In this document: positions 16,532 through 50,800 of the stretch, in pieces
Position numbering within the stretch: position 1 is the stretch's first letter
Layout: every line of letters starts with the position of its first letter
Source: a virus
Lineage: Duplodnaviria; Caudoviricetes
DNA length: 52,885 nt
IMG/VR virus record: IMGVR_UViG_3300037493_004106
Span: 1 to 52,885 of that record
Direction: 5' to 3' (one strand)
Notes under the pieces: model-generated
Database searches by the model: none
Seen by the model: the letters and a program-made list of their open reading frames with translations, nothing else
What the model was told of the DNA's origin: nothing
Program-made: the position numbers and the translations under genes

Positions 16532-16532
16532 G

Positions 16533-17274: not shown

Positions 17275-17276
17275 TC

Positions 17277-17528: not shown

Positions 17529-17549
17529 TTAATAAAATTATAATAAAAA

Positions 17550-17684: not shown

Positions 17685-17687
17685 ATT

Positions 17688-17972: not shown

Positions 17973-18424
17973 TGAAAATTATAGAAAACTTTGTTGATCA
18001 AAATTTTGAAAATGAAATTCTCAAAATGATCCCAGAAAAAATAAGTAATACTAAAGATAGAAATCAAGTAATAAGATATGGTACAAGGAGACCTTATCCA
18101 TCTGATATTAAATCTGACATTATTCCTGATCTGTTCCTATCTATAAAAGATATTAAATTTGATTCTGTTACTATAAATGAATATAAAGCAGGACAAAAAA
18201 TAGATTGGCATATTGATAGGGTAGATGCTGGTAATGATATTTATATAATTAGCTTATTAAGTACTGCTGTTTTAAAGTTTAGAAAAGATAATGAAGTAAA
18301 GGAGTTTCCTTTACCTAGATACTCTTTAGCAATAATGTCTGATGAGCTTAGATATGAATGGGAACATGGTTTATTTGCACCTCTTGATAGAATTTCTGTA
18401 GTATTTAGAAATTCAAATAAGTAA
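17972..18424 (+). CDS. alkB: AlkB-family 2OG-Fe(II) dioxygenase
   Basis: INEY..GQ.IDWHID...RYEWEHG...RISVVFR. Confidence 0.88.
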   Translation: MKIIENFVDQNFENEILKMIPEKISNTKDRNQVIRYGTRRPYPSDIKSDIIPDLFLSIKDIKFDSVTINEYKAGQKIDWHIDRVDAGNDIYIISLLSTAVLKFRKDNEVKEFPLPRYSLAIMSDELRYEWEHGLFAPLDRISVVFRNSNK

Positions 18425-18425
18425 T

Positions 18426-18830
18426 ATGGAAAAACATAACATCTTTCATGGACAATTTATTTGTGACAATGCAGGGAATATTGTTCCAGCTAACAAAAGC
18501 ACTGCTGAAAAATATAATCTTTTTAAGAAAGGCATAGAGAAGAATCAAAAGATTGATGTATTTATGGAAACTAATGAAGATAATGGTACTGTTCCACAAA
18601 TAGCAAAAATACATGTTTGTATAAGAGAATTATCTCTATATACTGGTTATACTTTTGAGGAAATGAAAAAAATAGTTAAAGAAAAGTCAGGTCTATGTTT
18701 TACTATAACAGAAAATGATCAAGAGAAAGAATTTTGCAAATCATTTGGTGATTGTAGTAAAGAAGAATTAGCCCTGGCGATAGAAACTATTATTCAAATA
18801 GGAGATGAAACTGGTATTAACTTTCGCTAG
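18426..18830 (+). CDS. NinB/Orf-like phage protein
   Basis: Q.AKIH..IRELS..TGYTFEEMK...SFGDCSKEEL...IE pattern. Confidence 0.55.
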   Translation: MEKHNIFHGQFICDNAGNIVPANKSTAEKYNLFKKGIEKNQKIDVFMETNEDNGTVPQIAKIHVCIRELSLYTGYTFEEMKKIVKEKSGLCFTITENDQEKEFCKSFGDCSKEELALAIETIIQIGDETGINFR

Positions 18831-19128
18831 GCTTCTGGAACTTTCCCTTTTCATCAACTTCAACTTCCATATCCTTAAGAATACCTTGCTTTTTTGATTC
18901 GCTTTCAATTTCATGAATTAGTACTAAAAGAGTCAGTAAATGATATTCATATTCATTCTCTGGCTCTTTGGTTTTTATTTTTTCTATTATCTCATTTACT
19001 TCTTCAGGAGTCTTCTGAGATAAATGATAAACTGCAAGTTCTTGCAATCTAGCAGTAAATCCACCACTTACTTCTATCTTTATGATAGAATCAAATGGAA
19101 TTCCTTTAAATTTTAATTTTTTATTCAT
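18817..19128 (-). CDS. Hypothetical protein, antisense to the surrounding operon
   Basis: Fills the + strand gap exactly; has its own promoter. Confidence 0.8.
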   Translation of the reverse strand: MNKKLKFKGIPFDSIIKIEVSGGFTARLQELAVYHLSQKTPEEVNEIIEKIKTKEPENEYEYHLLTLLVLIHEIESESKKQGILKDMEVEVDEKGKFQKPSES

Positions 19129-19132
19129 GACA

Positions 19133-19163
19133 CAAATTTAATAAATTTATTTATAATGGCAAA
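19133..19163 (-). promoter_or_regulatory. Bacteroidota-type promoter
   Basis: On - strand TTTG (19163-19160)-N19-TAAATTTG (19140-19133), just upstream of ATG 19128. Confidence 0.7.
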
Positions 19164-19866
19164 CATTGATATTGAAGAGATTAAACTTAAACTATATGAT
19201 AAGATTAAAGACTCTGGATGGGGATTTAAACTAAAATCATTTATACTTTCTGATGAATTTAGTAGAATATTAACTACTTTAAGAGATCAAAGTGATGAAG
19301 GTAAAAAGTTTGTCCCACAAATTAAATATTTGTTTAGAGCATTTGAGGAATGTCCTTATGATAAACTTAAAGTTATAATGATTGGACAAGATCCCTACCC
19401 TTATGTTAATGTACCTGATGGTATTGCTTTTTCATGTTCTTTAAAAGGAACACCTGAAGCATCATTAAGCTTTATGTTTAAGGAGATAAATGATACAGTA
19501 TATAAAGATCCTACAAGGGTTCATAATGCTGACCTAGCTAGATGGTCTAATCAAGGGATGCTTATGCTAAATGTAGCATTAACAACAACATTTAATAAAG
19601 TAGGTGAACACTATGAGCTATGGAAACCATTTATAAGTTTCTTATTAGATATGATTGTTGCAGATAAGAAATCAATGGTATATGTATTTCTTGGTAAGAA
19701 GGCTAAAGAATGGGAAGATATGATACCAGATGATAATATAAAAATTAAATGTAATCACCCGGCATATGCAGCACATCTAAAAGAAAAAAGTTGGAACTCT
19801 TATGATATGTTTAATAAAGTAAATGAAAGCTTAAGAGAACTAGGAAAAGATGAAATTGTGTGGTAA
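19156..19866 (+). CDS. ung: Uracil-DNA glycosylase (family 1)
   Basis: GQDPY, GIAFS, W..QG.L.LN..LT, HP. Confidence 0.95.
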   Translation: MANIDIEEIKLKLYDKIKDSGWGFKLKSFILSDEFSRILTTLRDQSDEGKKFVPQIKYLFRAFEECPYDKLKVIMIGQDPYPYVNVPDGIAFSCSLKGTPEASLSFMFKEINDTVYKDPTRVHNADLARWSNQGMLMLNVALTTTFNKVGEHYELWKPFISFLLDMIVADKKSMVYVFLGKKAKEWEDMIPDDNIKIKCNHPAYAAHLKEKSWNSYDMFNKVNESLRELGKDEIVW

Positions 19867-20274
19867 TTACAGTAGTAATATAATAATTATTATAGTTAAT
19901 GCGCTACCAGTAGCAATCCATCCTGTCTTAAATATATCACGCATCTTCTGCAGTCTACTTACATCATCTTTTAATGTTTTAATATCTGCTTCTCTATTGG
20001 TAATAAGGGTATCTTTATACAAGACTTGCTTATTCAGATTATCAATTTGAATTTGTTTTTCATCTATAACCTGGTTTCTATTATTGATTTTAGCTTTAGC
20101 ATTTTCTAACAAGGTATCACATGCTTGACATTCTGTTATTAATGAAGCAATTTTTCTAAGCTCTGATAAGCCATAACACTTAATTGTATCTTGGCTTGAA
20201 GTTAAGGGCTGAGCGAATGATACTGTCCAATTGATCAGGAGTAGCATCAGAAACAATAAATTCAATTTTTTCAC
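19867..20274 (-). CDS. Exported coiled-coil protein with C-terminal TM (spanin-like candidate)
   Basis: Signal peptide (..SFA|Q), long coiled coil, C-terminal IATGSALTIIIIILLL; overlaps its partner in another frame. Confidence 0.65.
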   Translation of the reverse strand: MKKLNLLFLMLLLINWTVSFAQPLTSSQDTIKCYGLSELRKIASLITECQACDTLLENAKAKINNRNQVIDEKQIQIDNLNKQVLYKDTLITNREADIKTLKDDVSRLQKMRDIFKTGWIATGSALTIIIIILLL

Positions 20275-20512
20275 GGGTTCTGGTAATTATTTGTGGTTCA
20301 ATAGATTCTAAACTATCATATGCTTTAATCAATTTTTGCTCATTTTCTTGACTAATTTTGAGTCTAGAATTTAATGCACTTATAGAATCCTTTAAATATT
20401 TATCATTATCACTTTGTAAGGTGGTTACAGAACTATCTTTAGTTAGAATCATTAACAAATTTATGATAATTATTAGGGTTAGAATAGATATTATTACTTG
20501 ATGGACTTTCAT
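20180..20512 (-). CDS. N-terminal TM coiled-coil protein (i-spanin-like candidate)
   Basis: Likely start 20512 (MKVHQVIISILTLIIIINLL); TATTTTTG -7 box at 20524-20517. Confidence 0.65.
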   Translation of the reverse strand: MKVHQVIISILTLIIIINLLMILTKDSSVTTLQSDNDKYLKDSISALNSRLKISQENEQKLIKAYDSLESIEPQIITRTREKIEFIVSDATPDQLDSIIRSALNFKPRYN

Positions 20513-20531
20513 TTTACAAAAATACAAAAAT

Positions 20532-35805: not shown

Positions 35806-35843
35806 AGGGGAGATTGGCTTAGGCCTTTCTCCCCTTTTTTTTT
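35806..35843. terminator. Terminator at the convergence of the two genome arms
   Basis: AGGGGAGA...TCTCCCCT plus T-run between convergent stops. Confidence 0.85.
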
Positions 35844-38800
35844 ACTTATACACTGTATATTGTCTCTTAAATATCTTCTCTATATCCATTAGTGGATCTG
35901 TATCTGAACCACTAAAGCCCAAGTAACCCTTAAAGACATCATTCAATATTTTAGGAGATCCTTCTTTTTGATACCACCATGGACCAACATCCTGCTGATA
36001 GAAAGCATATTTTGATCCAGCCATCCATCCTGGCAAGTCTTTAAATAAAATACTAACTGTATTAGTTAGTGGTCCACTTAAAGCAATTGCTTGTGGATTA
36101 ATAAAGCTTACATAGTGATTTGCTACTTTCAAGTCTAAAGGATTTAATGGATTTATAAATGCTTGGTTTTCATTTCTTACATTTAATCCTAATTTTAAAA
36201 ATTGTAATCCTAACCAACTAATCTCATTAGCTTCATATTTTGCTTTTATCTTTTTGTATGCTTCATCATCATCATCATCCCATCCAAAGAAGAAGTAAAG
36301 CGCAAAGTTAAATAGCATCATAAGCAATGCATCAGCTGCAATTCTTGTTAATGCTATTCTTTCCTCTTTACCCATAAATTGAAGGTAACTTCTCATTTCA
36401 CCTTGTATAGTGGACATTATAAATTTATATATACTTTTAAATCCAAGTAAGTACCATCCTTCATACTCAGAACCAACTCCAAAGTTGTATCTCTTTTTTG
36501 AAAATCTAGCCATTAATGGAGCATAGAAGTATCTTCTCATAAATGCCATCATTCTATAGAAGAAGTTCTTTTGTAGATATGGTTGATCAAGTTTAGCAAA
36601 TGCACCATTGAGCTGATTACCTACAGCACCAACTCTATTTTTAAATGCTTGAAATAATTTACCATTGATATCCCAATCCTTACTAATACCATCCTTAAGT
36701 TTAATAACTCCGCTTTGATCTAATTCCCATGCTTCTGCATAAGGGATTAATCTTGTTACACCACCTTCATTAATTTCTACATACTGTTGGTATAGCATAC
36801 CATAGAATAAAGCTAAAGCTCCTTCCATCTCTAAAAACTTTCTAGGAGAGTATAACCACGACATACTTACTACATCCTTTAAAAAGCTTCTTTGTGTATC
36901 ATTAGCAAATTTATCTTCAAAACTTTTGTGCGCATCCATTAATCTGATTAACTGAACATCTAGTGGTTTGTCAATAGTAGTAGCATTTACAAATGGTGAA
37001 GTATAAGAAGTCCATAGCATCATAGCTTGAAGACCTTTGCCTTGTCCTTTTAAGTAAGAACTTCCTTGTAAAACAATTGGTGCAAGACCATCATATTCCT
37101 CATCATTTTGACCTATACCAGCTAATCCCAATACTGTATTTTGCCAAACCATTCCTAAGTAGTTTTTAGCAGCAGACTGAATATTTAATCCAAAAAACTG
37201 GAATGAAGAAAACTTGTTTAATGTACTAACTGCTTTATTAAGTATAACACTATGCTCATTATATGCATCATCATACATTTTTCCTCTAAGTTCTCTATCA
37301 ATCATGTGTTGTAAATACTCTTGTCTTCTAGATTTTTGATCATTCTTGTACTTTTTTTTAAATCTAGTAATACCATAAGCTTCCTTCATTATCCTATCTG
37401 CTTTGCTCATATTTTTTATGGCATTATCTGGATCATCTAACACATCCATTAATGATTGAGCAAGTGGATCTATTTTGAATTTTTGGTTTTGATACTGAAG
37501 ACTGATATTATATTTACCTAGTGAGTATAATAAATTAGTAGATGTCTTCTCAACAGGAAGAGCATCTGATACTCCATGCACGGGAATCTTATTAGAGGAT
37601 AAATCTTCTAATGATATATCTGCGTATTTTATAGCAGCTTCTGTTTTAAGCTCATCAATTTGAGCATTACCTAAGTCTTGCTCAAACTCATTACCTATTA
37701 AGCTTTGATCTTTTTCACCTCTGAGGCGATTAGGAATGTAGCTAAATACTTTTCTTAAATTATCTACTTCTTGTTTAGCATTACCGGATGCAACATATTC
37801 ATATCTATCCATTTCAAATCTTGGCAAATCAAGATATAGCTTAGCATCTTTAGTAGCATTTTTCTGAAACTTAAGAGTGTATTCAGTAGTCTTCTTTAAT
37901 AATTCAAACCTAGAATCATTAGCATTTTTCAAATCATAATATGTTTGATTTACATAGGGTGAATCTGTAGGAGCTGTATCAACTTTTTGTTCTGCATTTG
38001 TTAAAGGATTAATTACAGTATCCTCAAAACTTTTTGGTAAGAAGTTACCCATATTATCAATTACTACCCCTACATAGTTTTCTCTTTGTTCTGGTGTTAA
38101 TCCTATAGGAATAGTTCTATAATCATTCTTAATCCTTCTATACTTAAATCTGAATGCGGGTTCACCAACAACATTAATTACTTTATCAGTAAAAGGATCT
38201 TTTATTTTAAATGATTTTATGTCAGCAGGATTAGTAGGGCGAGTTACACTATAAGCATAAACTCTTTCATACTTATAATCTCTTTCTTTTGTTTTATAAT
38301 TTATAAATTCTTTGACAACATGAGTCTTTAAGAACCATTCTTTAAATCTCTTGTTCTTTGTCATTGCTTTTTCTAAAAACTCATTATCCTCTAATAGTTT
38401 ATTTGCAGTAGTTTTATCAACATCTGCACCACCTACTAGTTTTAAATGAATATTAGCTTGTTCTACATAATCATCTGTAGCTTGTTTAAATTGTATAGAA
38501 GCTAATACTTTAAATGCACCTTTTAATTGTGCTAACTTAATTGCACCAATTTTTGGATTGTCTTTTCTATTTAAAAGTTCTTCATACTTTTCTCTATCCT
38601 CTCCTTCTAACTTACCTTTTCTTTTTAATAACTCAGTAAGTTCAATAAGCTCTTCCATTTCATCAATAGATATTCCAGTCATTATAGCAAGCTTATCTTG
38701 AGCATCTATAATATCTTCCTGTGCAATCCTTAATTTTTCCATTGTTGCATCAGTAATTCTGGAAGCATCTGTTTCCCCATACTCATCTTTGAATATAGAT

Positions 38801-41799
38801 AGTACATCAAATATGTAACTATACTTTTCTGATATATCAATAGAAGATGTTATCTCCTTAATAGTATTTAAAGCTTCTAATCTTTGTTGGTTAAAGCTTT
38901 CCTTAAAAGCTATTTTTGTATTTTTAGCAATCCAGCCTTCATCACCATGCACTCTTGCATAGTATTCCATTCTCTTTGTTTTATCAGCAGAGTCTGGAGT
39001 AATGCCTTCTAATGCTAATGATTGAACAAACTCATTAAATGCTTCTTGAAATAGTCCAGGAACATCAATGTATTCATAAAACTTTTTGCTAGTCTCTCTG
39101 TGTTTAGCAAGAACTTGAGCAATACTTCTATCATAAATATTCTTTTCAGGAACATCAACCTTTGGCGTACCATCAGGATAATTTAAAGAATATAATTGCT
39201 TTAATTCATCTTGATAACCTTTAATAATATTAGTAGACTCATAAATATCACGCTCATTAAAATTACTTCCTTGTTCAAGTCTTAATTTTTCAAGTATTTT
39301 TTCTCTGGCTAACCAAGCATCCCATCCATATTCACTCTCTTCAAATATTTTATCTTTCTCATATACCTCTGTCTTATATCTTTGGTGGAAATACTTTTTA
39401 TCCCAGTTGTAATACTCTTTACTTTTTATTTTAAATTCTTCTCTATCTTTAAAACTGAGTTCTTCTAGATCATCTAGCTTCTTTCTTTTATCATATCTCC
39501 AATTTTGTGTTGGATTTAATATAGACCAAACCTCTTGCTCAATTAATTCACCTTCTTCATATTTAAAGCTTTTATCTTTAAACATATATTCTTTCCAGAA
39601 ATTGTGAGCATTATTATTACTATATCCTAATTCCTTTAATAAATTAGCAATTGATCTTTGAAAGTCTAGTTGTAATTTTTCTGCTTCTACTTCAGCTTTA
39701 GTATAAGCTTCTTTTAGGGTAATACCGAAAGCTCCTATTGACAAGTCATTAATATTTAAGATCTCATCAAAGTTTTTATTAGTCATTGTTAAATCAACTG
39801 TCTCACCTTTAAGAGATGCTTCTAATTTAGATTTATCAATTTCCCACTTTTTATATTCTGCTGTAAGCTCTGCTTTTCTTTTCTCTCCATATTGTTTTTT
39901 GTCTGGATTTTCATCTATTATTTTGTCAAATCTCTTTAGCTCTCTAGCATACTTATCATCAATATTTTTCTTTACTACTGCTAATTTTTCATAGAGTATA
40001 TTCTTTACTTTCTCAAAGTCTACTTGTTTTATTAAGATATCCCCTTTTTTGATATTATCCTGTATCTCTCCTATGTATCTAAAGATTGGGTTTTTCTCTG
40101 TAGAGAATCCATTCCTTAAAAATTCTTTATTAGCTTCTGTTAAAAGCTCATCAAATCCAGAATATAAACCTTTAAAACTATTAACTTTTCTTAAGTCATT
40201 TAATAGAGTATCAGTATCTGTAGTTTGATTTTGAATTTGCTCATCTTTAATAGTTTCTAATACAGTATTTATTTTCTTTACAAGAAGGTTCATACTTACT
40301 AATGTATTGATATATGCTTGAGCAGCATTCTTTAAATCTTCATTATTAGTAATGATATCCTTTTGTTTGGTCTGTTCTTGTTCTACTTTTACATTTGTTG
40401 TTCTGTATGGCTTAAGTTGTGCTCTTAATTGATTTAATAGTGCAGCACCTGATTCTTCATCTAAAAGATCTTTAGTTTCTGTTTTAATTGCACCTTCAAC
40501 TTTCTTTATATAAGCTAGTCTTTCCTCAATTCTTTGATGCAATACATTAATACTTGCTTGTAATGCTTGTCTTTTGGGATCATTTGATACATCAGCAACT
40601 AAATCTTCAATTTCTTGTACTTGTACTCTCTTAAAATCAACATAATCTTTGGCTACTTCATCAAATTCAATAGAGAAGTTTTTACCAATAATTATATCAG
40701 CCAGATCTTTAATAGTAGTATTAGCTTTAAGATTTTCAGCTTTTATTTTATCTCCTTCTAAGTTCTTATTGCCAAACATTTTCCTAATAACCATTCTTAT
40801 TTCAGCTAATATGTTTTGTATAGCTTTTAAGAATCCTTTGCTAAGAGATGTTTCTTTGTTTTCTAAATTAGAATATGGATCTTTTGGTAGACCTACTTTT
40901 GTAGCAAGATCAGTTGCTTCATAAGCAAGAGCATTAACAATAATCTCTTCTTTAAATCTATCACTTTCCTCTTCTAAGTTCTTATACTCATTCTTTACAT
41001 AAGTCTTAATTTCTTGTCCTTCTGGTGTATTTATTACTGATTGGTAAAGTGACTCAAATAAAGCTTTATTTTTAGATTGAATCATCTTTACTATAGGATG
41101 AGCAAACTCATGGAATACAGAATTTAAATTAATTTTATCCTGTACTAAATAAACCACACCATTATAAAGAAATGAAGGTTCATTAACATAAGGAGTATCT
41201 GTATTACTTAATAACTGAATAGCTGAATCAGAAGATATCTTTTCATACTTAATGCCTAGTTTGCTTGATAACATCTGAGCCCATTGAATAGCAATATAAT
41301 TTGCTTTCATTTGATTAAACTTCTGCTCATCAGTAAGAGTATAAAATGACTCCGGATATTTTGGCAATTTATTATAGCTCATTATATCATTATAGAGTAT
41401 CTCTGCTGAATTAACTGGCTTAGGTATTTCTATAGAATCAAGATCTTCTTTTGCTTCATTAACAACTCCTAATACTTCCTTTTTATAATCTTGCTTATCT
41501 AACCATTTTTTAAAATCCTCATTAGCATAAATGTTGTTATCAGCATTTCTTATAATTTCTAAAGGACTAACAAAGCTGGTAATGTTCTTTTTAAATTCTG
41601 GATTAGTATATGCTTCTAATAAAGGTATTGCAATATTAGATTTTTGTTGTAGAAATTCTTGGAACACTGCTTCTAAAGGAGTAGCATATTCACCATCGTT
41701 TCTAGCAAATGTCTTCCAAGCTAAGTCTTCACCTAATGTTGCTTCTAAATTCTGCCATTCTGGTAAATTCTTATTTGGACAAACTAATAAATTTTTCAT
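35842..41799 (-). CDS. Giant virion (ejection/cargo) protein with zincin domain
   Basis: 1985 aa; HEFAH (41098-41112) plus EE; C-terminal hydrophobic helices; adjacent to the virion RNAP gene. Confidence 0.8.
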   Translation of the reverse strand: MKNLLVCPNKNLPEWQNLEATLGEDLAWKTFARNDGEYATPLEAVFQEFLQQKSNIAIPLLEAYTNPEFKKNITSFVSPLEIIRNADNNIYANEDFKKWLDKQDYKKEVLGVVNEAKEDLDSIEIPKPVNSAEILYNDIMSYNKLPKYPESFYTLTDEQKFNQMKANYIAIQWAQMLSSKLGIKYEKISSDSAIQLLSNTDTPYVNEPSFLYNGVVYLVQDKINLNSVFHEFAHPIVKMIQSKNKALFESLYQSVINTPEGQEIKTYVKNEYKNLEEESDRFKEEIIVNALAYEATDLATKVGLPKDPYSNLENKETSLSKGFLKAIQNILAEIRMVIRKMFGNKNLEGDKIKAENLKANTTIKDLADIIIGKNFSIEFDEVAKDYVDFKRVQVQEIEDLVADVSNDPKRQALQASINVLHQRIEERLAYIKKVEGAIKTETKDLLDEESGAALLNQLRAQLKPYRTTNVKVEQEQTKQKDIITNNEDLKNAAQAYINTLVSMNLLVKKINTVLETIKDEQIQNQTTDTDTLLNDLRKVNSFKGLYSGFDELLTEANKEFLRNGFSTEKNPIFRYIGEIQDNIKKGDILIKQVDFEKVKNILYEKLAVVKKNIDDKYARELKRFDKIIDENPDKKQYGEKRKAELTAEYKKWEIDKSKLEASLKGETVDLTMTNKNFDEILNINDLSIGAFGITLKEAYTKAEVEAEKLQLDFQRSIANLLKELGYSNNNAHNFWKEYMFKDKSFKYEEGELIEQEVWSILNPTQNWRYDKRKKLDDLEELSFKDREEFKIKSKEYYNWDKKYFHQRYKTEVYEKDKIFEESEYGWDAWLAREKILEKLRLEQGSNFNERDIYESTNIIKGYQDELKQLYSLNYPDGTPKVDVPEKNIYDRSIAQVLAKHRETSKKFYEYIDVPGLFQEAFNEFVQSLALEGITPDSADKTKRMEYYARVHGDEGWIAKNTKIAFKESFNQQRLEALNTIKEITSSIDISEKYSYIFDVLSIFKDEYGETDASRITDATMEKLRIAQEDIIDAQDKLAIMTGISIDEMEELIELTELLKRKGKLEGEDREKYEELLNRKDNPKIGAIKLAQLKGAFKVLASIQFKQATDDYVEQANIHLKLVGGADVDKTTANKLLEDNEFLEKAMTKNKRFKEWFLKTHVVKEFINYKTKERDYKYERVYAYSVTRPTNPADIKSFKIKDPFTDKVINVVGEPAFRFKYRRIKNDYRTIPIGLTPEQRENYVGVVIDNMGNFLPKSFEDTVINPLTNAEQKVDTAPTDSPYVNQTYYDLKNANDSRFELLKKTTEYTLKFQKNATKDAKLYLDLPRFEMDRYEYVASGNAKQEVDNLRKVFSYIPNRLRGEKDQSLIGNEFEQDLGNAQIDELKTEAAIKYADISLEDLSSNKIPVHGVSDALPVEKTSTNLLYSLGKYNISLQYQNQKFKIDPLAQSLMDVLDDPDNAIKNMSKADRIMKEAYGITRFKKKYKNDQKSRRQEYLQHMIDRELRGKMYDDAYNEHSVILNKAVSTLNKFSSFQFFGLNIQSAAKNYLGMVWQNTVLGLAGIGQNDEEYDGLAPIVLQGSSYLKGQGKGLQAMMLWTSYTSPFVNATTIDKPLDVQLIRLMDAHKSFEDKFANDTQRSFLKDVVSMSWLYSPRKFLEMEGALALFYGMLYQQYVEINEGGVTRLIPYAEAWELDQSGVIKLKDGISKDWDINGKLFQAFKNRVGAVGNQLNGAFAKLDQPYLQKNFFYRMMAFMRRYFYAPLMARFSKKRYNFGVGSEYEGWYLLGFKSIYKFIMSTIQGEMRSYLQFMGKEERIALTRIAADALLMMLFNFALYFFFGWDDDDDEAYKKIKAKYEANEISWLGLQFLKLGLNVRNENQAFINPLNPLDLKVANHYVSFINPQAIALSGPLTNTVSILFKDLPGWMAGSKYAFYQQDVGPWWYQKEGSPKILNDVFKGYLGFSGSDTDPLMDIEKIFKRQYTVYK

Positions 41800-41806
41800 A
41801 TAATTA

Positions 41807-44800
41807 TTATTGATAACAACGTCTCTTTAATTCTAACCAATCATCTTCTACAACATCCTGATATTTAACTAATATGTCTTTTATACTAGGAGTATTTTCT
41901 GATCCTGGATTTACAAATTTAAACTTATTATAAAGCTCTTTGCTGATATTATCAAAAATACTTTTCTGTAATGAGTTAGAACCTTCAGATACTACTTGTG
42001 TAGATACAGGAGCTTTGGTAACTTTAAATGTATTAGCATATACATCTCTGATAGCTTGTCTACCTGCCTCATTAATTTCCCTAGTACCAATACCTGCAAA
42101 GTTTTTAGTAAGAGTAGGTACTTCAGATTTAGACCATTTACCATTGATATTTTTATACCATTGATTTCTTATTTGATCAAATAGATAGACTGGTTTACCA
42201 GCTTGAATTGCCATTTCTACTGCATAACCTGTTCCTCCTTGTACTGCAACCTTGAGAAGTTTTCTTGGTTCAGCAGATTTTTCATCTCCTTTCCAAATAT
42301 CACCTTCTTTACCCAATGTACCAATAGCAAATACTGCATCTGAGTTAACAACTTGAGCCCAATTTCTAATTAGTCTCTGATCTTTCATTGTGTTGTACTT
42401 ATAACCCCACATTTGCTTAGCAGCTTGTGCAACCTTACTTGCTCCTTCTACTGCTATTGGCTTATCTGTAATATCTACATTTCCTAATGGTGCATTCTTT
42501 GGTCCTTTTTCTCCAGTAAAGTAATGTTTATTATTTACCATACTAAAGTCTTTACCAATTACATCCCATTGCGTATCAGATCCAATTGCCCCACCAGAAT
42601 GATTAGTATACTCTGCTGGATTATTTACAGTACTTACAGGAACTTGAGCTGGTTTACCCCAATCATATTTATTAATAAGATAATCTAATGCTGTAGCATG
42701 AGAAGGTTCTCCAAGTTCTTTATAATAAAGAATAGGTTTACCTTTTAATTCTCCTGATTGTAATTGTTCTAAAATCCATTCTCTTTGATTATCTAATTCT
42801 TCTGGTTGTATTCCTGTAAATACATATTCACCAGTTTCTCCTGTTATAATCCAATTAATATACCTTTCTACAGCTTCTTTTGTTGATTTAACTTGTATTA
42901 AATTTTGAAGTCTTATATCAGATGTAAAAGGATTTCCAAAATGAGCATCAGACATTTTTATTCTGGTAGATATTATTTGATTATTAAAATTAGAAATAGC
43001 TTTAGTAGCATCTTTTAATTCTCCCCAAGATTTAATAACTACATTTCCTGACTTAGTTTTATTACCTAATTTAGAATATATAGTTTCAGCTGTTTGTGTA
43101 CTTACAGGAGCTTGAGGTTGAGTAGATGATTGAGTAGGTGTAACAGATAATATAGGAACATTACCTGTAATACCTTTAGCTGTAACATTTAGCATGCTAC
43201 CTATTGATCCTACAAAGACTAGCTTTTTACCCGCCATGTATTGCTCATTAATAGCATCAATATCCTTAGATATTATGTTTGATACCATAGCAAACTGTTC
43301 TGTGTTCTGAGGATTAGTAGCTGCGTTTTGATCTCTCATAGTTATTACACCCATAGCATTGTTTAATCCTGCTAATGATAAAGCCATCTTATTAATAGGA
43401 TTGACAAACTTTGCTCCTATTTTAATATCACTTGCTTTCTTAAACTCTTTATTCTTTTGAGCCATTCTTAATGCATAGATATCATCATATACAAATATCT
43501 TATCTGGATTATTTTTAGCAAGTTCTACAAGTCTAGCACCATCTAAAGGAACAAGTTGCTTAGTTCTTGCCTTTGTCTTAGGATCAACAACTACTTTCTC
43601 TACTCTATCTGCTACTTTAAACACTCTTGGATTAGAAGTTGATACCAAAAAGTCTTTATTAAATTCAGATGAGACATTATAGTTTTCTACTATCTCTTTG
43701 AAATTAGCAGAGAAATAATAGTTTTTTATTCTTGTTCTTTGAGAAACATTTTCTCTAGAATTCTGTTCTGCAAAATTGTCCCATATTGCTTTTAGAAAAG
43801 AAGTATCTGAAATAGAAATTGTATCATCAGTACTTTCCATTACTACAAATGAATTTAAAGATGCTGTATATTTAGCTACTTCTTTTTTCTTTTTTTCTTT
43901 CTCTTCTTTTGTTCCACTTATATCAAATACTTTTGGTTCTAATGCTTTTTGTATTCTAGATACTGGATCAAGCATTATATTTCTTATATCTTGGTAAGGA
44001 AGTATTTCAGAAAAGTCATACTTCCCTGCACTCATACCATTCTGCATATAAGAATAAATAGGGAATATTTTGAATGTATAAGTTATTCTTTGATCTATCT
44101 TTCCTCCATTATCAATCTTAGATATACTTGGATCAGCCAAGTCTTTTAAGTTGTCATTATATGAATTTGCAATTTCTGGTTCTAAGTCTCTGATCTTAAA
44201 ATAAAGATTGCTAAGATTTGAGCCAATTTGTTTTTCAGAAGCCAAGAATTTTAAGACAGGATAATTCTCTAATAAAGTTTTGTGATCTTTATCATTAACT
44301 AAATCCATTACTTGTTTTGCTAATGAGTAGTTCTCATCATAGTATAATGTTTGAATATTGCCTATATTAATAAGAGCTTGTACTTTTAAAAATTCTTCGT
44401 AAGCTAATACATCTATATCAGAATTATAATCTCTTTCATTTTGATCAACGCCTTTAGGATTAGCATCCTTCATTCTCTTTCTTATTTTTTCATAGAATGG
44501 ATCATTCTTAAGTTCAGAAAGCTTATTGTTATATCTTAAGTATTCTCTCTCTACTACAAACTGTTGAAATTCTTTTGCACTCTGTTCTCCATAATTATTA
44601 AAGATGTTTTTATTTAATTTAGCTAGACCTCTAGAAACATAATTATTAGCACCTTCACTTCTTAAATAAGCTTGAGTTTTAAAATCATTTTCAATTATTG
44701 ATTTATCAATATAAATAACAGGTTTGCCCGGAACTTTTTCAGCTACCAATGCTCCGCCAGTAAGTCTATCTACAATCTTAACTGGTATATCAGTTGTTAC

Positions 44801-47800
44801 AAGTAATGACTTATAACTAGGCATATTGATATTAAATGACTTAATATAATTTTGGAATAGTGCTAATTTTAAGTCACTGATAAACGTAGATATTATCTTT
44901 TCATCTTTATAACCTGTCTGTGATTTAATTCTATTGAGATCATATGTATTGTCAATTATAAATTTAGATATTACTCTATTTGATTCTAATGGAAGTAATG
45001 GAGACCACAAATCAACTTGGAAATTCTGTATTCTAAATGTGCTCAAGATAGAGTCATTGATTATAATATCAGCTAAGTCTTGATCTATTCTTTCATTATT
45101 CAATAGATTATTGATTTCAAAATCTCTACTAAGAGCAGAGAATAAACCAGTATCTTTTGCTTTATCTAAATTTGTTTTTAATCTTAACTGTTTAATACCA
45201 GAATTAAACTTTTCTATTTGAAAGAAATGAAGAAAAGCTAAAAGAGAATTATCTGTTATTCCTTTATTTTTTACTATTAGTGCTAAATCATTTGTAGAAA
45301 AACTTTTATTTCCTAAAGCTTCATCTAATATTTTATAGATATTTTTTTCGTTATACTTTTTAGGATCAAAACCATATTTATTTAAAGTTCTTCTAAATGC
45401 TTCAACTCTAAAATACATTGGATTATCAATGCCTTTCTCTAACTGTTTAGAATAAGGAGTTTTAATTAATCTTTGTTGCTTAACATACTCTCTTACCATA
45501 GGATTAGAAACAAACCATCCAGCATCTTCTAATGTAATACCTGATTCAACCATTGATAAAATAACAGGAATTACCTCTATATAACCCTGCAGATAAACTA
45601 ACCATTCATTTTGTTCTAAATCTACTGCACCATTTATTATCTGGGATATAATATCTGATATAGGATGAATACCTTTATTGTCATATATACTTGATAATGA
45701 TACTACCTTTTTGCCATTTTCATTAATTACAGAATTATGATTTAAATAATACTTGATTGGCATATCTATTAATTCAGTAACCATTTGCTTATTTTGATCA
45801 TAAACAACTTTACCATTTTCATCTAGTACAGGATAAGGAAAAGCCAATGATTCAGGCATTAATGCTCCATATCTCATAAATAAGGTATGATATTTATTAC
45901 CAATAACAGCAATACCCAATGAACCTTTACCAGTATTAAAATTAAAATGTTTATCAAGATTAAATATTGGCTCTAATAATCTGCTAGGACTAACTCCTCC
46001 TTCCAACACTTGTCCATCTTTTAATATACTTTTTTGCCAGTTATTCTCTTGTACATAAGGTTTAAGAGACTCAGATATTTTAATCCCGATATTATTATTG
46101 TTAGGTCTAATTAATGAATAAAACTTTTCTGGAGATGATAGAATATCAACTATTGAATTGATTAATGCATTTTCATATTGACCAATAAATCTTCTTTTTA
46201 TTTCTTTAAGGGAGGATATTTTATTATTTATTTCATTAATTTCATTTAAATCTTGTTTAAAAGAATCTCTTTGTTCTATTGATATTTTCATAGAATCATA
46301 TAGAGCTTTAATCTCTACATAATTATCATAAGAATCTGTTTTTAAATTAAATAATTTTTTATTCTTACTAATCTTAGATAATAATTCGCTTTTGCTTAAA
46401 CCTTTAAATAATTCCATCAGTTCTTTTTCAGTGCCTGATAATATTATTTTCTTCATATCATCCGTGATATATGGACTTTCTAAATTATTTATTAATTCAA
46501 AAGATATATCCTGAATAATCTCTGTCTTTTTAGCTTTTGCTATTTCTAATAAAAGAATAACTGATTTTATAGATCTATTACTTACTCTAATGTTTTCTTT
46601 TACTTGTTTCTTTACTTCTGATAAACTTGTTTTATCATATTTTTCAGAAGCAAGTTTATCTCTCTCTGCTTCTGCTTTAGTTATATCCTCATCAAGTTGC
46701 TCTTTATTTTCATAAATCAGGTTCATAACTTCTCCTGACTTCATGATATTTGGTAGATAGACAGTAAGTTTATCTATGTCAAAGTCAGCACCAGCTTTTG
46801 CTACAATCTCTTGTGGTGGTATAAGAACATTACCAAATTGTGGAGGCAAGAATTCAAATACTTCCATAAACTCCATAGAGTTATCACCTTGTACTGGAAT
46901 ACGAACACCTACTAATGTAATCTTCTTTCTATTATCACCCATGTCTAACCACTCTTCATCTTTAAGGAGAGCATTTAGATTAGCTAATGTATTTTCAAAA
47001 TTTAATATTCTTTCAGATTCTCCATTCTCATTTTCTACAGTATCATAAGCTTTGATTGAATTACCTTCTTTATCTTTTGCATTAAAGAGATTTTCAAAAT
47101 CACCTTGCAATGATATTTTTATTTTCATTGCAGTATTTATAAGCTCATTCTTTTTAGTTTCTGGATTATATCTCATTGTCTGACCATAGGTTGCTAGGTC
47201 AGTAGTTTTAAATCCATACTTTTCTATCTCTTCCTCAGTTGGCTTTCTAAATTTAGGTTTTTCAAATAAAGCATTTGATTGTAATACTAAAGCTTCTCCT
47301 TTAATCTTTTGCTTTACTAATTCATTGTTTACTATTGATAGAAAAACTCTTTCAAATTTATTAGCCCAGGGAATAGCTGATATATCTGATTTTACTTCAC
47401 CTGTTATAGGATCAACATCAAAATAATCTAATTGATGATCGGGAACATTCTGTTGCTTAAGCTTTGGCTTAATAACATTATTAATAAGCAACTCTCTGTT
47501 TTTTTGTAACTTCAAATCAATATTAGGATCCAATCCTCCTTTGATAAGAAGTTCCTTTCTCTTTTGCTCAGTAATTTGAGCTACTATTGTTTCAAATGCT
47601 CTTGCTTTTTTATAATTAGCATATTTAAGCTTTCCTTTTTCTGTAAGAACATCCCACTTTCTTTTTCTTTCTGCATATTCCGAATTAGGCATAAAGTCAG
47701 AAGGAATACCATTAAGGAATAAACCTGAAGTGATTAATGTTCTAAACTGAATAGAGAATACAGAGCTTCCTTTCCAGCTTGTATTAATTTCAACTTGATC

Positions 47801-50800
47801 TCTTAGATTTCTTACCCACACCACATTTACATTTTTTAAGAAAGTGACATCAGAATTAAATTCTCTATTGTCTAATTCTCCTTTATATAAATCAGGGTAT
47901 GAACCATTATCAGTAATATTGGCTGTTTTAGATCCAGATTCAAAAGTTACATAGTCAATACCTTCTTCCATCATTTTGTCATGGAGCTTATTAAGATTGA
48001 TATCCATTAAGCCTGGAATAAGTGGAGCTAATGAAAATTTATGCATTGCTAATGCAGGAAGATGTTGTCCCTTTAACATTCCATAGTGAGAAAACTTTAC
48101 TGGAGACATGAACTTACCTACTTCTTCTACTGATGGTATATAACCTTCAATGATTGCTCTAAATAAATTTTCATGTTCCTTTGTCCACTTTTGTCTAGCT
48201 TTTAAAAGTATTCTATAAGAGTCAAGGGCAATATATCCTTGACCATCTGCTTCTTTCATTTTATAGTAAGGATAAACTTCACCATTCTCTTTAGGATCAT
48301 TAATTGATCCTCCCTTACCATATACTATTTCATCTACTAGTTGATTAAGTTTAGTAGCAGTAAGCTTTGGATTTTTACTTCTAATTCTAGCCTTGTAGAA
48401 CTCTTCCATCTTTTTAGCATAGAACTCATAAGCAGCAGATTTGCTTTTTATCTCTTTTATAATAGAAGTATTTAATGTTCCATTATATTTTCTATATGCT
48501 ACATCTGCAGATACTTTTCCTTCTGCATTTCTTTTTAATGATAATGGTCTTTTGAATACATCATTAATATAATCTTGAAAAGCGGCATCTGTCCTAAAAA
48601 GATTACCCGGAGATTGAGAATTACTTGTTCTCTTATTTCCATCATCCTTTTTATGATTGAATTGCTGTAAGCCACCATGCAATAACATATACATATATGC
48701 ATTGTGTATCCATGAATTTACAGTATATGAATTTACTAAAGCAGTTACCCACTTACTTCTATTTTGAGACAACTCTGTATCTACATCATCTGTATATTTA
48801 GATACAATAGATTCTAATAACTGATCATATATAAAGGGAGCTTTCTCTATTTCTTCTAATGTTTTACTAGAAATAGTTTGAAAATAATTTGCAGTATCTT
48901 CTTTTATGGACTTTGCTAACTCAGGATATTTTGTGTTTAATAATATCTTTAAAGCATTCCTACTAGGATCTGCTAATAAATCTTGATATATCTCTGGAGC
49001 TAAAAGTAATTGTTTTGTAGAAGGTTCTAGGATATCATCAAATGCGTAGAACTTATTTTTACTTTTTTCATATACACTAATGTTATTGTAAATATCTGGA
49101 TTATCATTTACAATATTTATTCTTCGCACTTCAGCTTCAATAAGTCTAAACACTATATCAAGTAACTCTGCATTTTTTAGTACAGGATTTATTTTATCTG
49201 GCTTTACAATTAAAGATGCTGTGTCAATATATAAATGTGGTTCAACTGCATTTCTTCTTATTTTTCTTTCTGTTCTAACACCAAATACAGAGCTTTTAGA
49301 CCCAGCTTTAGGATTTTGTATATAACCAGAATTTAAAACCATATGAAAATCAGTAATAAACTTTGTATGTCTATCTGATTTTGACATTGATGTTCCACTA
49401 ACAAAAAGATTATTCTCTAATAATTGAGTACCATTAATATTTTCAAGTATTAATTTAGTACCCTTTCTTCTTTTTCCAAAGTCAGAGTTAATTAAATCAA
49501 CATCTAAAATAAATACATCATTAAGAATACCTAATGCTTTTATATCTGGATTAATTCTAGGATCTAAGAATTCAAGATATGGTGTTTCACCATTTGGATC
49601 ATATAAATCTTGGAATCTATTTGCCTTATTAATTGCCTCAACTAATATAGATACTGGAAAGTTCAATGAGTGCTCATAGGCTTTATCATTACTAGCAGTA
49701 GATACACTTAAATTAGAATAATTATCAGAGTAGTTATACTGTAACTCAGCTAATTCATTTACTCTAAAGCTTAGTGACTTTAAATTTTTACCACCTAATC
49801 CTTTAACATAAATAGGAATAGGATCATAAACTATTTGATTAGTTTTATTTAGCTCATCTATAAAGCTTGCAAAGTAAGTAGTAATACTTGGATCAATCTT
49901 AGACTTTATTTCAGAATTGATATCTATATAAATACCAATAGCATTAAAAAACTGCAAGGCTCTTTCTAAATCTTTTAAGATTGGCTCACCATTTTTATAT
50001 TCAATAAAATCATTAATTATCTTACTTAAATTTAAATAAGGATTATTTGAAGTATCAAGTAAAACATAACCATTATTATCCGGTGTTTGAGAAAAGAATT
50101 TGTTTCTCCAATCTCTTTTAACTTTTATTCTATCTGAACTTGTTTTACCAATTGCATAAGAATATTGATCTTCTTTCTTCTCATCTTCTAAAAAAGAAAT
50201 GTCATCAAACTCATCTTCTTGTTCTGCCTTTTTAATTTTATTAAGCATTACAATTAAAGGAACTCTAGGCTTATTAAAATCTTGCCAGAAGTCTGTCCAT
50301 AAATCTAATTGTTGTACACCTCCTGTAGCTCTCCAGTTATTAGGATTACTTAATCTATTAGCTAACTGCTGATAAACAGGGATTGCCTTTTGTTTATTTG
50401 GATCACTAATAATATTCCATAAATCACTTGGCTCATTATATCCAGCCAAGTTTCTTACTAACTGATTCCATACAGAATCAAAGTCAGCTAATTCAGGAAC
50501 ACCTAATCTATTCTTTTTAATACCATCTTTTTCTTTTGGATCTAAAGCATAGAGTGTTTTAATTAATCTGATTGTAGATATAGCAGCTAGTTCTTTTATA
50601 GAAAGCTCATTACCCTTAGCATCATTAATTTTATAACTTTTTGCAATGTCTTCTGCATTGGAAGAAGTAAGATCAACATCTTCAATTATCTTAATTCCCT
50701 TAAGTACATCACTATTATTTAGGAAGTAATGTAAATAACCAAGACTTTCTTTACCATTTAATACTTCTTCTGTATTACCATAATTAGCAATTACCCATTC

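What the first reader, a model, noticed from the sequence alone, without database searches (positions are those of the whole stretch)
41996..43138. Repeat-delimited enzyme cassettes at the C-terminus of the virion RNA polymerase
Seen: three copies of a linker (PQAPVSTQ, PAQVPVST, KAPVSTQ) conserved in DNA (copies 2/3 18 of 19 nt, copies 1/3 18 of 20 nt) bracket two compact domains. One (42653-43093) has HFGNPF...AVERY..W...SHA..L, like DUF4326. The other (42014-42628) has HSGGAIGSD...RN...NSDAVFAIG...GGTGYAV...KPVY...FAGIGTR, a SLOG-fold pattern. Knowledge: the crAss-like virion RNAP is packaged and delivered with the DNA, and SLOG domains bind or process nucleotides in conflict systems. Inference: the linker is a microhomology handle for plug-in exchange of effector domains delivered as protein at infection, a polymorphic payload system.
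Basis: partly seen in the sequence, partly recalled or inferred. Interest (0 to 1): 0.8.

Follow-up and report, generated by a model that had tools for sequence, protein, structure and literature searches.

The report
Swappable add-on domains on phage polymerase
The tail end of a crAss-type phage's giant particle-borne RNA polymerase is a string of small enzyme-like domains that related phages lose, reorder and replace exactly at the short linkers between them, a known kind of injected multi-tool protein caught in the act of reshuffling.

Summary
The gene (minus strand, 41807-52885, open at the contig end) is a crAss-type virion RNA polymerase homologue with a DFDID motif. Its last 610 residues read: DUF7831-like domain, linker 1, cysteine-less DUF4326-like domain, linker 2, YpsA/cpYpsA-type SLOG domain (Z 12.0 to PDB 3imk), linker 3, and a 63-residue tail holding the protein's only cysteine.

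Related phage contigs and metagenome contigs show that the modules move:
- The SLOG cassette is 86-89% identical in DNA to relatives whose polymerase core is only 26-29% identical in protein.
- Its neighbours differ among relatives (NADAR, AlkB-like, ART-PolyVal, DUF4326-like).
- One metagenome contig lacks exactly the 630-nt SLOG cassette, with the joint inside the PVST codons.
- Two contigs from two studies carry the two cassettes in the opposite order.

This matches the published concept of 'polyvalent' injected proteins, and the SLOG-DUF4326-NADAR association is also published. Delivery into the host, the biochemistry, and a causal role for the linker DNA are all inferred, not shown. The linker DNA identity is no higher than codon bias predicts.

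Earlier notes of this scan report the same design on other DNA. Verdict: a new variant of a known kind, with moderate to high interest.

The parts
41807..52885 (-). Giant gene, a crAss-type virion RNA polymerase homologue. It reads as 3692 aa, is open at the contig end, and its first ATG is at 52567.
   Evidence: ORF list. tblastn of aa 1501-2500 hits crAssphage 'RNAP catalytic subunit' genes at E 7e-9 to 5e-6, 21 records. The window is the whole 52,885-base virus record.
46772..46786 (-). DFDID motif (aa 2034-2038), the DxDxD catalytic signature of crAss-type RNAPs.
   Evidence: The motif is described in PMC7886860 and bioRxiv 10.1101/2020.03.07.982082 (passages and abstract).
43121..43648 (-). 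DUF7831-like domain (aa 3080-3255), a third cassette upstream of linker 1.
   Evidence: Pfam PF25176 at E 0.011, 16.1 bits, below the 27-bit cut-off. In the ESM Atlas the nearest named clusters are DUF7831 at 0.92, 0.91 and 0.90, 26 of 30 hits. A metagenome contig breaks off at 43121.
43091..43120 (-). Linker 1 (TQSSTQPQAPVSTQ; PVST codons at 43097-43108).
42650..43090 (-). Cysteine-less DUF4326-like domain (aa 3266-3412; HFGNPF ... YYKELGEPSHATALDYLIN).
   Evidence: 40 homologues. Invariant residues are N53 P54 W80 Y122 Y123 L126 S130 H131 A132 L135. 8 of 25 homologues weakly hit PF14216. hhalign against 6 true DUF4326 sequences aligns 98 co-linear columns, probability 31%. Model pLDDT 92.8. 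656 relatives found, many inside giant proteins.
42626..42649 (-). Linker 2 (KPAQVPVST; PVST codons at 42629-42640).
   Evidence: Homology to L003 starts here. Joint and loose ends at 42625-42646.
42020..42625 (-). SLOG domain of the YpsA/cpYpsA type (aa 3421-3622; HSGGAIGSD ... GGTGYAVEMA ... FAGIGTR).
   Evidence: phrog_768 at E 1e-6. 729 homologues. Model pLDDT 93.7. VIA-align Z 12.0 to 3imk, then LOG-like, DprA, YpsA and ShosA at Z 5.5-6.6. 86-89% nt identity to L003-L010.
41999..42019 (-). Linker 3 (VTKAPVST; PVST codons at 41999-42010).
   Evidence: Homology to all four relatives ends just upstream, at ..NTFK. Joint 42003->42634.
41810..41998 (-). C-terminal tail (63 aa) ending LKRRCYQ. 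Cys3690 (41816-41818) is the only cysteine of the protein.
   Evidence: A terminal Cys is present in 82 of 137 related proteins.
35842..41799 (-). Downstream 1985-aa gene of the same block. Its only cysteine is Cys7 (41779-41781).

Best explanation
The last ~610 residues of this crAss-type virion RNA polymerase protein form a modular add-on array. In order: a DUF7831-like domain, a cysteine-less DUF4326-like domain, a YpsA-type SLOG domain, and a short anchor tail that carries the protein's single cysteine. Short in-frame Pro/Val/Ser/Thr/Gln linkers join them.

Shown here:
- The modules are autonomous folds.
- They also occur as free-standing phage proteins and inside hundreds of other giant phage proteins.
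- In related phages they have been deleted, permuted and replaced, with junctions in or beside the linkers.

Inferred:
- The whole protein is packed into the capsid and pushed into the host ahead of or with the DNA, as shown for other crAss-type polymerases.
- The add-ons therefore act in the first minutes of infection.
- SLOG and the DUF4326-like domain work as a pair on NAD+/ADP-ribose-derived small molecules or adducts (N-glycosidic bond and terminal phosphate respectively), blunting NAD-based host defence.
- The short repeated linker DNA makes in-frame recombination between cassettes more likely, while selection keeps only junctions at domain borders.
For: **Gene identity.** The protein has DFDID. 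It is similar to crAssphage RNAP genes. The window shows replication-module plus transcription-block synteny like cr113_1.

**SLOG fold.** Z 12.0, rmsd 3.4 Å over 140 residues to 3imk. The next eight rows (ranks 2-9) are LOG-like, DprA, YpsA, ShosA and MoCo-carrier entries.

**DUF4326-like domain.** True PF14216 domains are fused to this same SLOG family in 4 of the 120 listed homologues.

**Pairing.** 21 of 137 related proteins hold both domains. They are adjacent in 14 as SLOG then DUF4326-like and in 5 in the reverse order; in 2 the SLOG sits nested inside the other domain.

**Giant-protein context.** 80 of the 137 are 1500 aa or longer, and 55 of those 80 carry DFDxD.

**Exchange.**
- Between the window and L003-L010, only the SLOG cassette is alike: 86-89% nt and 81-91% aa, against 26-29% aa in the core.
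- L003 and L006 are 97-98% identical on both flanks but carry different cassette blocks.
- L008 and L010 have cores about 64% identical but a SLOG-plus-joint stretch 95.4% identical over 679 nt.
- L004 equals L003 minus 1108 nt, crossed over inside a 29-nt imperfect repeat.
- A contig of run X2 joins 42003 to 42634, an in-frame loss of 630 nt inside the PVST codons. Contigs of X2 and X4 (two studies) have the order SLOG then DUF4326-like.

**Relatives' cassettes.** NADAR at E 1.9e-12, AlkB-type 2OG oxygenase at 5e-23, and ART-PolyVal at 1.4e-5, which is sub-threshold.

**Ejection logic.** The protein has 1 Cys in 3692 aa, against 1.3% Cys in 17 other ORFs. The N4-like Pylas vRNAP carries the same SLOG family and has no Cys in 3819 aa.

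**Literature (passages read).**
- Polyvalent injected proteins: PMC5512222.
- crAss RNAP proteins are virion cargo that must partly unfold to be ejected: PMC10172136.
Against: - No data show that this protein is in virions or reaches the host.
- No substrate is known for any of the three modules.
- The window's own DUF4326-like domain has no Pfam hit even at E<=10. It has no solved structural analogue: Foldseek found nothing at E<=0.001 and the best VIA Z was 3.2. It also lacks the family's conserved cysteines.
- Linker DNA identity is about what codon bias predicts.
- The exact APVST joint is rare elsewhere: 1 relevant locus of 3 matched.
- Linkers around this domain in 104 upstream and 100 downstream flanks of other giant proteins are diverse, with only 1.3-1.7-fold enrichment of P, T, Q and E.
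- The share of identical codons at conserved residues is 70-75% in SLOG against 38-64% in the core. The window's own cassette is therefore not a very recent import.
- The deletion joint rests on one metagenome contig at depth about 5, and assembled contigs can be chimeric.
Confidence: 0.6

Rival explanations
1. The add-on domains serve the polymerase's own work rather than counter-defence. They would process or repair the 5' ends or bases of early transcripts or of the incoming DNA, for example by removing NAD/ADPr-type caps or adducts, or through AlkB-type demethylation. On this view they are accessory transcription and repair modules that happen to be exchangeable.
For: The modules are covalently attached to an RNA polymerase. 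Relatives carry AlkB-type 2OG oxygenase modules at the same place. One homologue of the DUF4326-like domain is fused to a uracil-DNA glycosylase (P0037). PMC7824862 (passages) notes DUF4326 fusions to DNA replication and R-M components.
Against: The same modules are common as free-standing proteins: 729 SLOG homologues of 111-354 aa. They sit at N-terminal, middle and C-terminal positions in giant proteins, which argues against a fixed geometric coupling to the active site. They are optional among close relatives. NADAR and ART partners point to ADP-ribose chemistry.
Confidence: 0.2
2. The linkers have no role in recombination. They are ordinary flexible spacers, possibly cleavage sites for the protein's own zincin-like protease. 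Breakpoints map to them only because in-frame junctions at domain borders are the ones that give working proteins.
For: Linker DNA identity is close to the codon-bias expectation. Linkers in other giant proteins are diverse. The exact APVST joint is rare elsewhere. An HESWH motif lies in the same protein. PMC5512222 (passages) proposes processing of polyvalent proteins by zincin peptidases.
Against: Two events cross over inside short direct repeats: the L004 deletion within a 29-nt repeat, and the X2 joint inside the PVST codons of linkers 2 and 3. A 27-nt TQPSTxVKP joint is letter-identical in 6 contigs, including lineages whose cores are 64-70% identical.
Confidence: 0.3
3. The SLOG domain is a DprA-like single-strand DNA binder, as PHROGs and GenBank annotators name it. 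It would protect or load recombinases on the entering genome.
For: phrog_768 'DprA-like' at E 1e-6. GenBank product names in cr113_1 and Atu_ph07. DprA structures match at Z 5.7-6.4.
Against: The best structural match by a wide margin is the cpYpsA/'MoCo carrier' entry 3imk, at Z 12.0 against 6.4 for DprA. The recurring partners are DUF4326, NADAR and DUF7831 rather than recombination proteins. PMC9503650 (passages) places viral SLOG domains mainly in the YpsA-like clade.
Confidence: 0.07

Closest known systems
Polyvalent proteins of phages and conjugative elements (Iyer, Burroughs, Anand, de Souza, Aravind 2017, PMC5512222)
   Same: A giant multidomain protein that joins a virion RNA polymerase, an HExxH motif and unrelated small enzyme domains. 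It is predicted to enter the host with the DNA. ART-PolyVal modules occur in relatives.
   Different: That paper started from N4-type polymerases. Its text holds no 'crAss', 'SLOG', 'linker' or 'shuffl'. Here the polymerase is crAss-type, the add-ons are SLOG, DUF4326-like and DUF7831-like, and exchange at DNA joints is documented among near-identical genomes and in metagenome contigs.
Viral SLOG-DUF4326-NADAR-Macro ADP-ribose-processing fusions (Iyer et al. 2022, PMC9503650; 2021, PMC7824862)
   Same: The same domain partnership and the same proposed chemistry: SLOG acting on N-glycosidic bonds or sensing cADPR, and DUF4326 acting on terminal phosphates.
   Different: Those papers describe the viral versions as typically standalone or small fusions in jumbo phages and giant viruses. 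Here they are cassettes of a virion polymerase, and the DUF4326-like domain has lost the conserved cysteines (YY...SH instead of CWC...CH).
crAss-type virion RNA polymerase (phi14:2 gp66; PhicrAss001 gp47/gp49/gp50)
   Same: DFDxD motif, giant size, position next to other giant genes opposite the replication module, and the expected virion cargo role.
   Different: phmmer gave no match to any solved chain. The papers read do not describe C-terminal NAD/ADPr-type cassettes.
cpYpsA / 'putative molybdenum carrier protein' SLOG family (PDB 3imk)
   Same: Best fold match: Z 12.0, 140 aligned residues, 17% identity; Foldseek probability 0.94.
   Different: No Pfam profile matched the window's domain at E<=10. 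The function of 3imk itself is unknown.
Cyanopodophage A4 pre-ejectosome disulfide, gp27 Cys1715 to gp26 Cys5 (PMC12002296)
   Same: A cysteine at the very C-terminus of one ejection protein and one near the N-terminus of the next (window: Cys3690 and Cys7 of the downstream protein).
   Different: The phage group is unrelated, and no structure or binding evidence exists here.

Membership tests
Polyvalent proteins (Iyer et al. 2017) | One large polypeptide combining several domains of disparate biochemical activity | tested here: met
   The protein holds the RNAP motif, a SLOG fold, a DUF4326-like domain, a DUF7831-like domain, a P-loop motif and an ART-PolyVal-like module.
Polyvalent proteins (Iyer et al. 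2017) | Zincin-like metallopeptidase hub domain | tested here: inconclusive
   An HESWH motif lies at aa 443-447, but no Pfam or PHROG profile matched that region.
Polyvalent proteins (Iyer et al. 2017) | Packaged in the virion and delivered into the host with the DNA | not testable with these tools
   Inferred from homology to crAss virion RNAPs, from papers and from near-total cysteine depletion.
crAss-type virion RNA polymerase | DFDxD catalytic motif in a giant protein of the transcription block | tested here: met
   DFDID at aa 2034-2038. tblastn hits crAssphage RNAP genes around it. Synteny agrees.
crAss-type virion RNA polymerase | Two double-psi beta-barrel domains in one chain | not tested
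   The core was not folded. phmmer against PDB sequences found nothing.
SLOG superfamily, YpsA/cpYpsA clade | Rossmannoid three-layer fold matching solved SLOG members | tested here: met
   3imk at Z 12.0. Then 1rcu 6.6, DprA 3maj 6.4, YpsA 2nx2 6.2, DprA 3uqz 6.0, DprA 4ljk 5.7, ShosA 8zva 5.7, 1weh 5.7 and MCP 2iz5 5.5.
SLOG superfamily, YpsA/cpYpsA clade | Conserved glycine-rich loop after strand 1 and a second GGxG-type loop | tested here: met
   G11 G12 A13 G15 D17 and G130 G131 T132 G133 are invariant in 47 sequences. The assignment of these loops to the SLOG signature is recalled.
SLOG superfamily, YpsA/cpYpsA clade | Match to a curated family profile | tested here: inconclusive
   No Pfam or NCBIfam hit at E<=10. 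PHROG 768 'DprA-like' at E 1e-6.
DUF4326 (PF14216) | Match to the Pfam profile above its cut-off | tested here: not met
   The window's domain has no hit at E<=10. 8 of 25 homologues have weak hits, best E 0.006.
DUF4326 (PF14216) | Co-linear core: R ... GNPF ... helix ... strand-loop-His helix | tested here: inconclusive
   hhalign of the family profile against 6 true members aligns 98 co-linear columns, probability 31%, E 5e-4. In the ESM Atlas the nearest named clusters are DUF4326 at 0.84-0.87, below the 0.9 mark.
DUF4326 (PF14216) | Conserved cysteines (CWC ... CH) | tested here: not met
   They are replaced by Y122 Y123 ... S130 H131, invariant in 25 sequences. The whole protein has a single cysteine.
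DUF7831 (PF25176) | Match to the Pfam profile above its cut-off | tested here: inconclusive
   16.1 bits against a 27-bit cut-off, E 0.011. ESM Atlas 0.90-0.92, 26 of 30 hits.

The most novel reading that the evidence does not exclude
The inter-domain linkers are dedicated in-frame recombination joints. A few short DNA words (APVST, TQPSTxVKP, QDIEGFKxFV) would be kept at cassette borders so that distantly related crAss-type phages can trade injected enzyme modules. The end of the virion polymerase would then be a protein-level cassette array, comparable in logic to integrons or polymorphic toxins. The terminal-cysteine tail would be the fixed anchor that must stay last.
Probability: 0.35. Interest if true: 0.8.

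Novelty: new variant of a known kind. Interest (0 to 1): 0.6.

Why it matters
Phage proteins that are injected act before any phage gene is expressed, so they are the first line against host defences. This locus shows a widespread environmental phage group (related DNA lay in sediment, marine, freshwater and lake-water metagenome runs that were laid on the window) hanging small NAD/ADP-ribose-type modules on its injected polymerase and reshuffling them quickly.

It offers three things:
- A ready catalogue of compact, cysteine-free candidate counter-defence enzymes.
- A natural system for studying how multidomain proteins gain and lose domains in frame.
- A testable link between the uncharacterised DUF4326, DUF7831 and viral SLOG families.

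Tried and rejected
**Profile and sequence searches with no result**
- Pfam and NCBIfam on the whole protein and on five pieces gave no usable hit.
- phmmer or profile searches against PDB sequences with the giant protein, the downstream protein, A1 and A2 found nothing meaningful.
- Megablast of 30000-52885 against GenBank phages found no match.
- PF14216 searched over the window's own record found no match.
- The last homologue search, with a true DUF4326 stretch, gave only 2 proteins, so the DUF4326 profile stayed thin at 6 sequences.

**Fold searches for the DUF4326-like model**
- Foldseek against the PDB gave nothing at E<=0.001. Weak rows included vaccinia VH1 phosphatase at TM 0.26-0.30.
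- The VIA-align wide search gave a best Z of 3.2, with NADAR entries at Z 2.4-2.5. This is too weak to support either a rhodanese-phosphatase or a NADAR relation.
- hhalign of A1 against single or 4-sequence DUF4326 sets matched only the GNPF segment.

**Joint searches**
- The exact window joints in IMG/VR gave 3 loci. Only L012 has the motif in an open frame, and none has SLOG or the DUF4326-like domain within 1.2 kb.

**Complex prediction**
- The tail against the first 250 residues of the downstream protein scored 0.00, no verdict.

**Earlier notes**
- A look-up by place found none for this genome.

**Laid contigs**
- Stretches without cover in single runs (for example X8 at 42207-42610) were not interpreted.

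**Reading set aside**
- 'DprA-like recombination mediator' (see rivals).
Full report
**What is there**

The finding lies at the 3' end of a giant minus-strand gene (41807-52885). The gene runs off the end of the record, and the window is the whole 52,885-base virus contig, estimated 44% complete. As read it has 3692 codons.

The gene carries HESWH at aa 443-447 and DFDID at aa 2034-2038. tblastn with aa 1501-2500 matched 21 phage records, all crAss-like, at E 7e-9 to 5e-6. The crAssphage genes annotated as RNAP catalytic subunit match around the DFDID motif.

The rest of the window is a plus-strand replication module: helicases, primase, resolvase, Sak4-like protein, exonuclease VIII and DNA polymerase. 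It converges on this gene and on a second giant gene of 1985 aa. That is the layout of the Crassvirales genome cr113_1. Calling this gene a crAss-type virion RNA polymerase therefore rests on a motif, weak but consistent similarity, and synteny. Packaging itself is taken from papers on phi14:2 and PhicrAss001 (passages read).

**The observation**

The 11-nt core CCTGTANNTAC occurs 4 times in the window against 0.20 expected.

The peptide repeat alone is not remarkable: shuffled proteins have on average 3.15 four-mers seen three times. The DNA identity is also only slightly above what the gene's codon usage gives for the same peptide, 16 against 14.2 of 18 nt. The point of interest is that the three copies sit exactly at domain borders defined by independent evidence.

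**The domains**

*SLOG domain.*
- aa 3421-3622 folds with mean pLDDT 93.7.
- Against 48,161 PDB representatives its best match is 3imk, a 'putative molybdenum carrier protein': Z 12.0, rmsd 3.4 Å, 140 residues.
- The next eight rows (ranks 2-9) are a LOG-like protein, DprA (three entries), YpsA, ShosA, TT1887 and MCP at Z 5.5-6.6. From Z 5.0 down the matches become mixed, with unrelated folds among further LOG-like entries.
- Foldseek gave 3imk probability 0.94. This is a SLOG fold.
- The family has 729 homologues of 111-354 aa, mostly free-standing proteins of about 180-210 aa.
- The same family sits inside the N4-type virion polymerase of Klebsiella phage Pylas (aa 983-1159 of 3819) and near the end of the cr113_1 giant protein.

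*DUF4326-like domain.*
- aa 3266-3412 folds with pLDDT 92.8 but has no solved analogue.
- Its family profile finds 656 representatives at E<=0.001 and 412 at E<=1e-10.
- Of the 150 best, I analysed the 137 new ids and left out 13 that were already in the first alignment set. Eighty of the 137 are 1500 aa or longer, and 55 of those carry DFDxD. The domain lies near the start, middle or end of these proteins.

*The link to DUF4326 is suggestive, not proven.*
- The window's domain has no Pfam hit.
- 8 of 25 homologues hit PF14216 weakly, best E 0.006.
- The nearest named ESM Atlas clusters are DUF4326 at 0.84-0.87.
- A profile-profile alignment to six true members is co-linear over 98 columns at 31% probability.
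- The family's CWC...CH is replaced by an invariant YY...SH.
- True DUF4326 domains are fused to this very SLOG family in 4 of the 120 listed homologues.

*Third module and tail.*
- aa 3080-3255, upstream of linker 1, looks like DUF7831: Pfam E 0.011, and ESM Atlas 0.90-0.92 for 26 of 30 hits.
- After linker 3 comes a 63-residue tail.

**Do the cassettes move? Viral contigs**

Nine related loci were found in viral contigs. Eight of them (L003-L010) carry a SLOG cassette 81-91% identical in protein to the window's.

At DNA level, the only long match between the window's gene and these loci is the SLOG cassette: gene nt 10240/10263 to 10859/10868, 86-89% identity. The polymerase core gave only short patches at 67-71% and is 26-29% identical in protein.

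On the 3' side, homology ends just before linker 3 in all four relatives compared. On the 5' side, it starts inside linker 2 for L003, which has QAPVSA there, and just after linker 2 for the others.

The neighbours differ among relatives:

| Locus | Order of modules |
|---|---|
| L003 | unnamed domain (NADAR-like by eye only; no Pfam match), SLOG, ART-PolyVal-like modules |
| L006 | AlkB-type oxygenase, SLOG, DUF4326-like |
| L008 | NADAR, SLOG, ART-PolyVal-like, oxygenase |
| L010 | ART-like, SLOG, oxygenase |

Pairwise comparisons of the relatives:
- L003 and L006 are 98.1% and 97.4% identical on the two flanks but carry different cassette blocks.
- L008 and L010 have cores about 64% identical but a SLOG-plus-joint stretch 95.4% identical over 679 nt.
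- L004 is 99.9% identical to L003 but lacks 1108 nt. The crossover lies inside a 29-nt imperfect direct repeat encoding QDIxGFKxFV.

**Do the cassettes move? Metagenome contigs**

Contigs from four public runs of four studies were laid on 41500-44500 at 85% likeness or more.
- One 1201-nt contig of run X2 (depth 4.9) goes from 42003 straight to 42634. It skips exactly 630 nt (210 codons), with the joint inside the PVST codons of linkers 3 and 2. This is a relative with the DUF4326-like domain joined directly to the tail.
- Contigs of X2 (590 nt) and X4 (1882 nt) run from the SLOG cassette, through 57 other letters, into the DUF4326-like domain. That is the opposite order.
- Loose ends cluster at 42015-42027, 42625-42646 and 43121, which is at the three linkers.

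Across 137 related proteins, 21 hold both domains: SLOG first in 14, second in 5, and nested inside the other domain in 2.

**How far does this support the 'handle' idea?**

Exchange at the linkers is well supported, and two events cross over within short repeats. Three things weaken a causal role for the DNA repeat.
- The APVST word is not the common joint of the group. Relatives use TQPSTxVKP, and a 27-nt form of it is letter-identical in 6 contigs, 5 of them already in hand. They also use QDIEGFKxFV.
- The window's exact joints were found in only one further relevant viral contig.
- In other giant proteins the flanks of this domain are diverse low-complexity stretches.

I cannot separate 'recombination happens there' from 'only junctions there survive'.

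The window's own SLOG cassette is also not a fresh import. At identical residues 70-75% of codons are the same, against 38-64% in the core, where strong codon bias sets a high floor.

**Function**

Nothing here measures function. The case for NAD/ADP-ribose chemistry rests on three points.
- The SLOG fold.
- The recurring partners in relatives: NADAR above its Pfam cut-off, ART-PolyVal below its cut-off, DUF4326 and DUF7831.

AlkB-type modules and a UDG fusion keep a nucleic-acid repair reading open.

**Relation to what is known**

The general idea is the 'polyvalent protein' concept: a giant injected protein joining a virion polymerase, a zincin-like peptidase and disparate enzymes (PMC5512222, passages). 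That text does not contain 'crAss', 'SLOG', 'linker' or 'shuffl'.

Three full-text searches found no paper that puts SLOG, DUF4326 or NADAR modules on crAss-type polymerases or describes their exchange at joints. The searches were DUF4326; crAss-like, virion RNA polymerase, polyvalent; and crAss, NADAR, SLOG, ADP-ribosyltransferase, virion. Figures and most supplements were not seen.

Earlier notes of this scan describe the same design on other DNA: swappable SLOG modules, repeat-bounded cassettes with TxQPSTSV joints, and terminal cysteines. I tested their main claims here on this window and its relatives.

**A side observation that bears on the tail**

The 3692-residue protein has one cysteine, three residues from its end. 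The downstream giant protein also has one, at residue 7. Seventeen other ORFs of the window have 1.3% cysteine, 71 of 5471 residues.

- Five of the related loci (L003, L005, L006, L009, L010) end their giant protein with the sole cysteine as the last residue; in L008 it is third from the end. L004 and L007, whose gene runs off the locus, show none.
- Of the 137 related proteins, with cysteine frequency 0.085%, 82 have a cysteine in the last four residues.
- The N4-type Pylas polymerase has none in 3819 residues.

This fits proteins that must unfold to pass the tail (PMC10172136, passages). It may also explain why the DUF4326-like domain is cysteine-free.

The facing terminal cysteines recall the gp27-gp26 disulfide of cyanophage A4 (PMC12002296, passages).

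On this view the tail is the fixed last element, and cassettes are inserted upstream of it.

**Verdict**

It remains unproven for the causal role of the repeat, for delivery and for biochemistry. This is a new variant of a known kind.

Noticed in passing
window 41816-41818 and 41779-41781 (minus strand): The giant protein's only cysteine is third from its C-terminus, and the downstream 1985-aa protein's only cysteine is residue 7. Other ORFs have 1.3% Cys. 82 of 137 related proteins have a Cys in their last four residues despite 0.085% Cys overall. This may be a head-to-tail disulfide tether like cyanophage A4 gp27-gp26.
   Followed up: partly
window 51836-52834 (minus strand; aa 18-350): The N-terminal part of the same protein also looks modular. 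It has a P-loop motif (GHPTIGKS, aa 51-58) and an ART-PolyVal-like module. The module's end-caps (ELFESNPELA; QQLYSQYLD..VKDIVYH; EPEQIHILGxKQDIxGFKEFV) are 82-92% identical in DNA over 51-74 nt to caps of C-terminal modules in L003, L008 and L010. The module interiors gave no DNA match.
   Followed up: partly
window 51545-51559 (minus strand): An HESWH motif, possibly a zincin-like peptidase as reported for crAss and N4 virion polymerase proteins. No profile matched it.
   Followed up: no
L001 (Klebsiella phage Pylas, NC_049444.1) 9055-20514: This N4-type virion RNA polymerase carries the same SLOG family (aa 983-1159, local HMM E 1.4e-67) between long T/Q/E/P/S-rich linkers. It has no cysteine in 3819 residues. 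The same add-on appears on an unrelated polymerase type.
   Followed up: partly
proteins P0209 and P0269: The SLOG domain appears to be inserted inside the DUF4326-like domain: the N-terminal part, then SLOG, then the C-terminal part. This suggests the two act as one unit.
   Followed up: no
L003 8492-8520 and 9629-9657; L004 8492-8520: Two contigs 99.9% identical differ by a 1108-nt in-frame deletion that crosses over within a 29-nt imperfect direct repeat encoding QDIxGFKxFV at the ends of two ART-like modules.
   Followed up: yes
L002 (cr113_1, NC_055896.1) 1-12789: Translated with table 11, the giant gene of this gut Crassvirales genome shows 73 in-frame stops in the part held, consistent with the stop-codon reassignment reported for such phages. 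It too ends ...RKFICNL.
   Followed up: no
protein P0037: A homologue of the DUF4326-like domain is fused through a short P/T-rich linker to a uracil-DNA glycosylase domain (PF03167).
   Followed up: no
L006 7020-7045: The junction between the polymerase core and the first cassette in L006 reads KPTGAPVNT, with GCTCCTGTAAATAC. That is 13 of 14 nt identical to the window's linker 1, so APV-type joints also occur in relatives that mostly use TQPST joints.
   Followed up: partly
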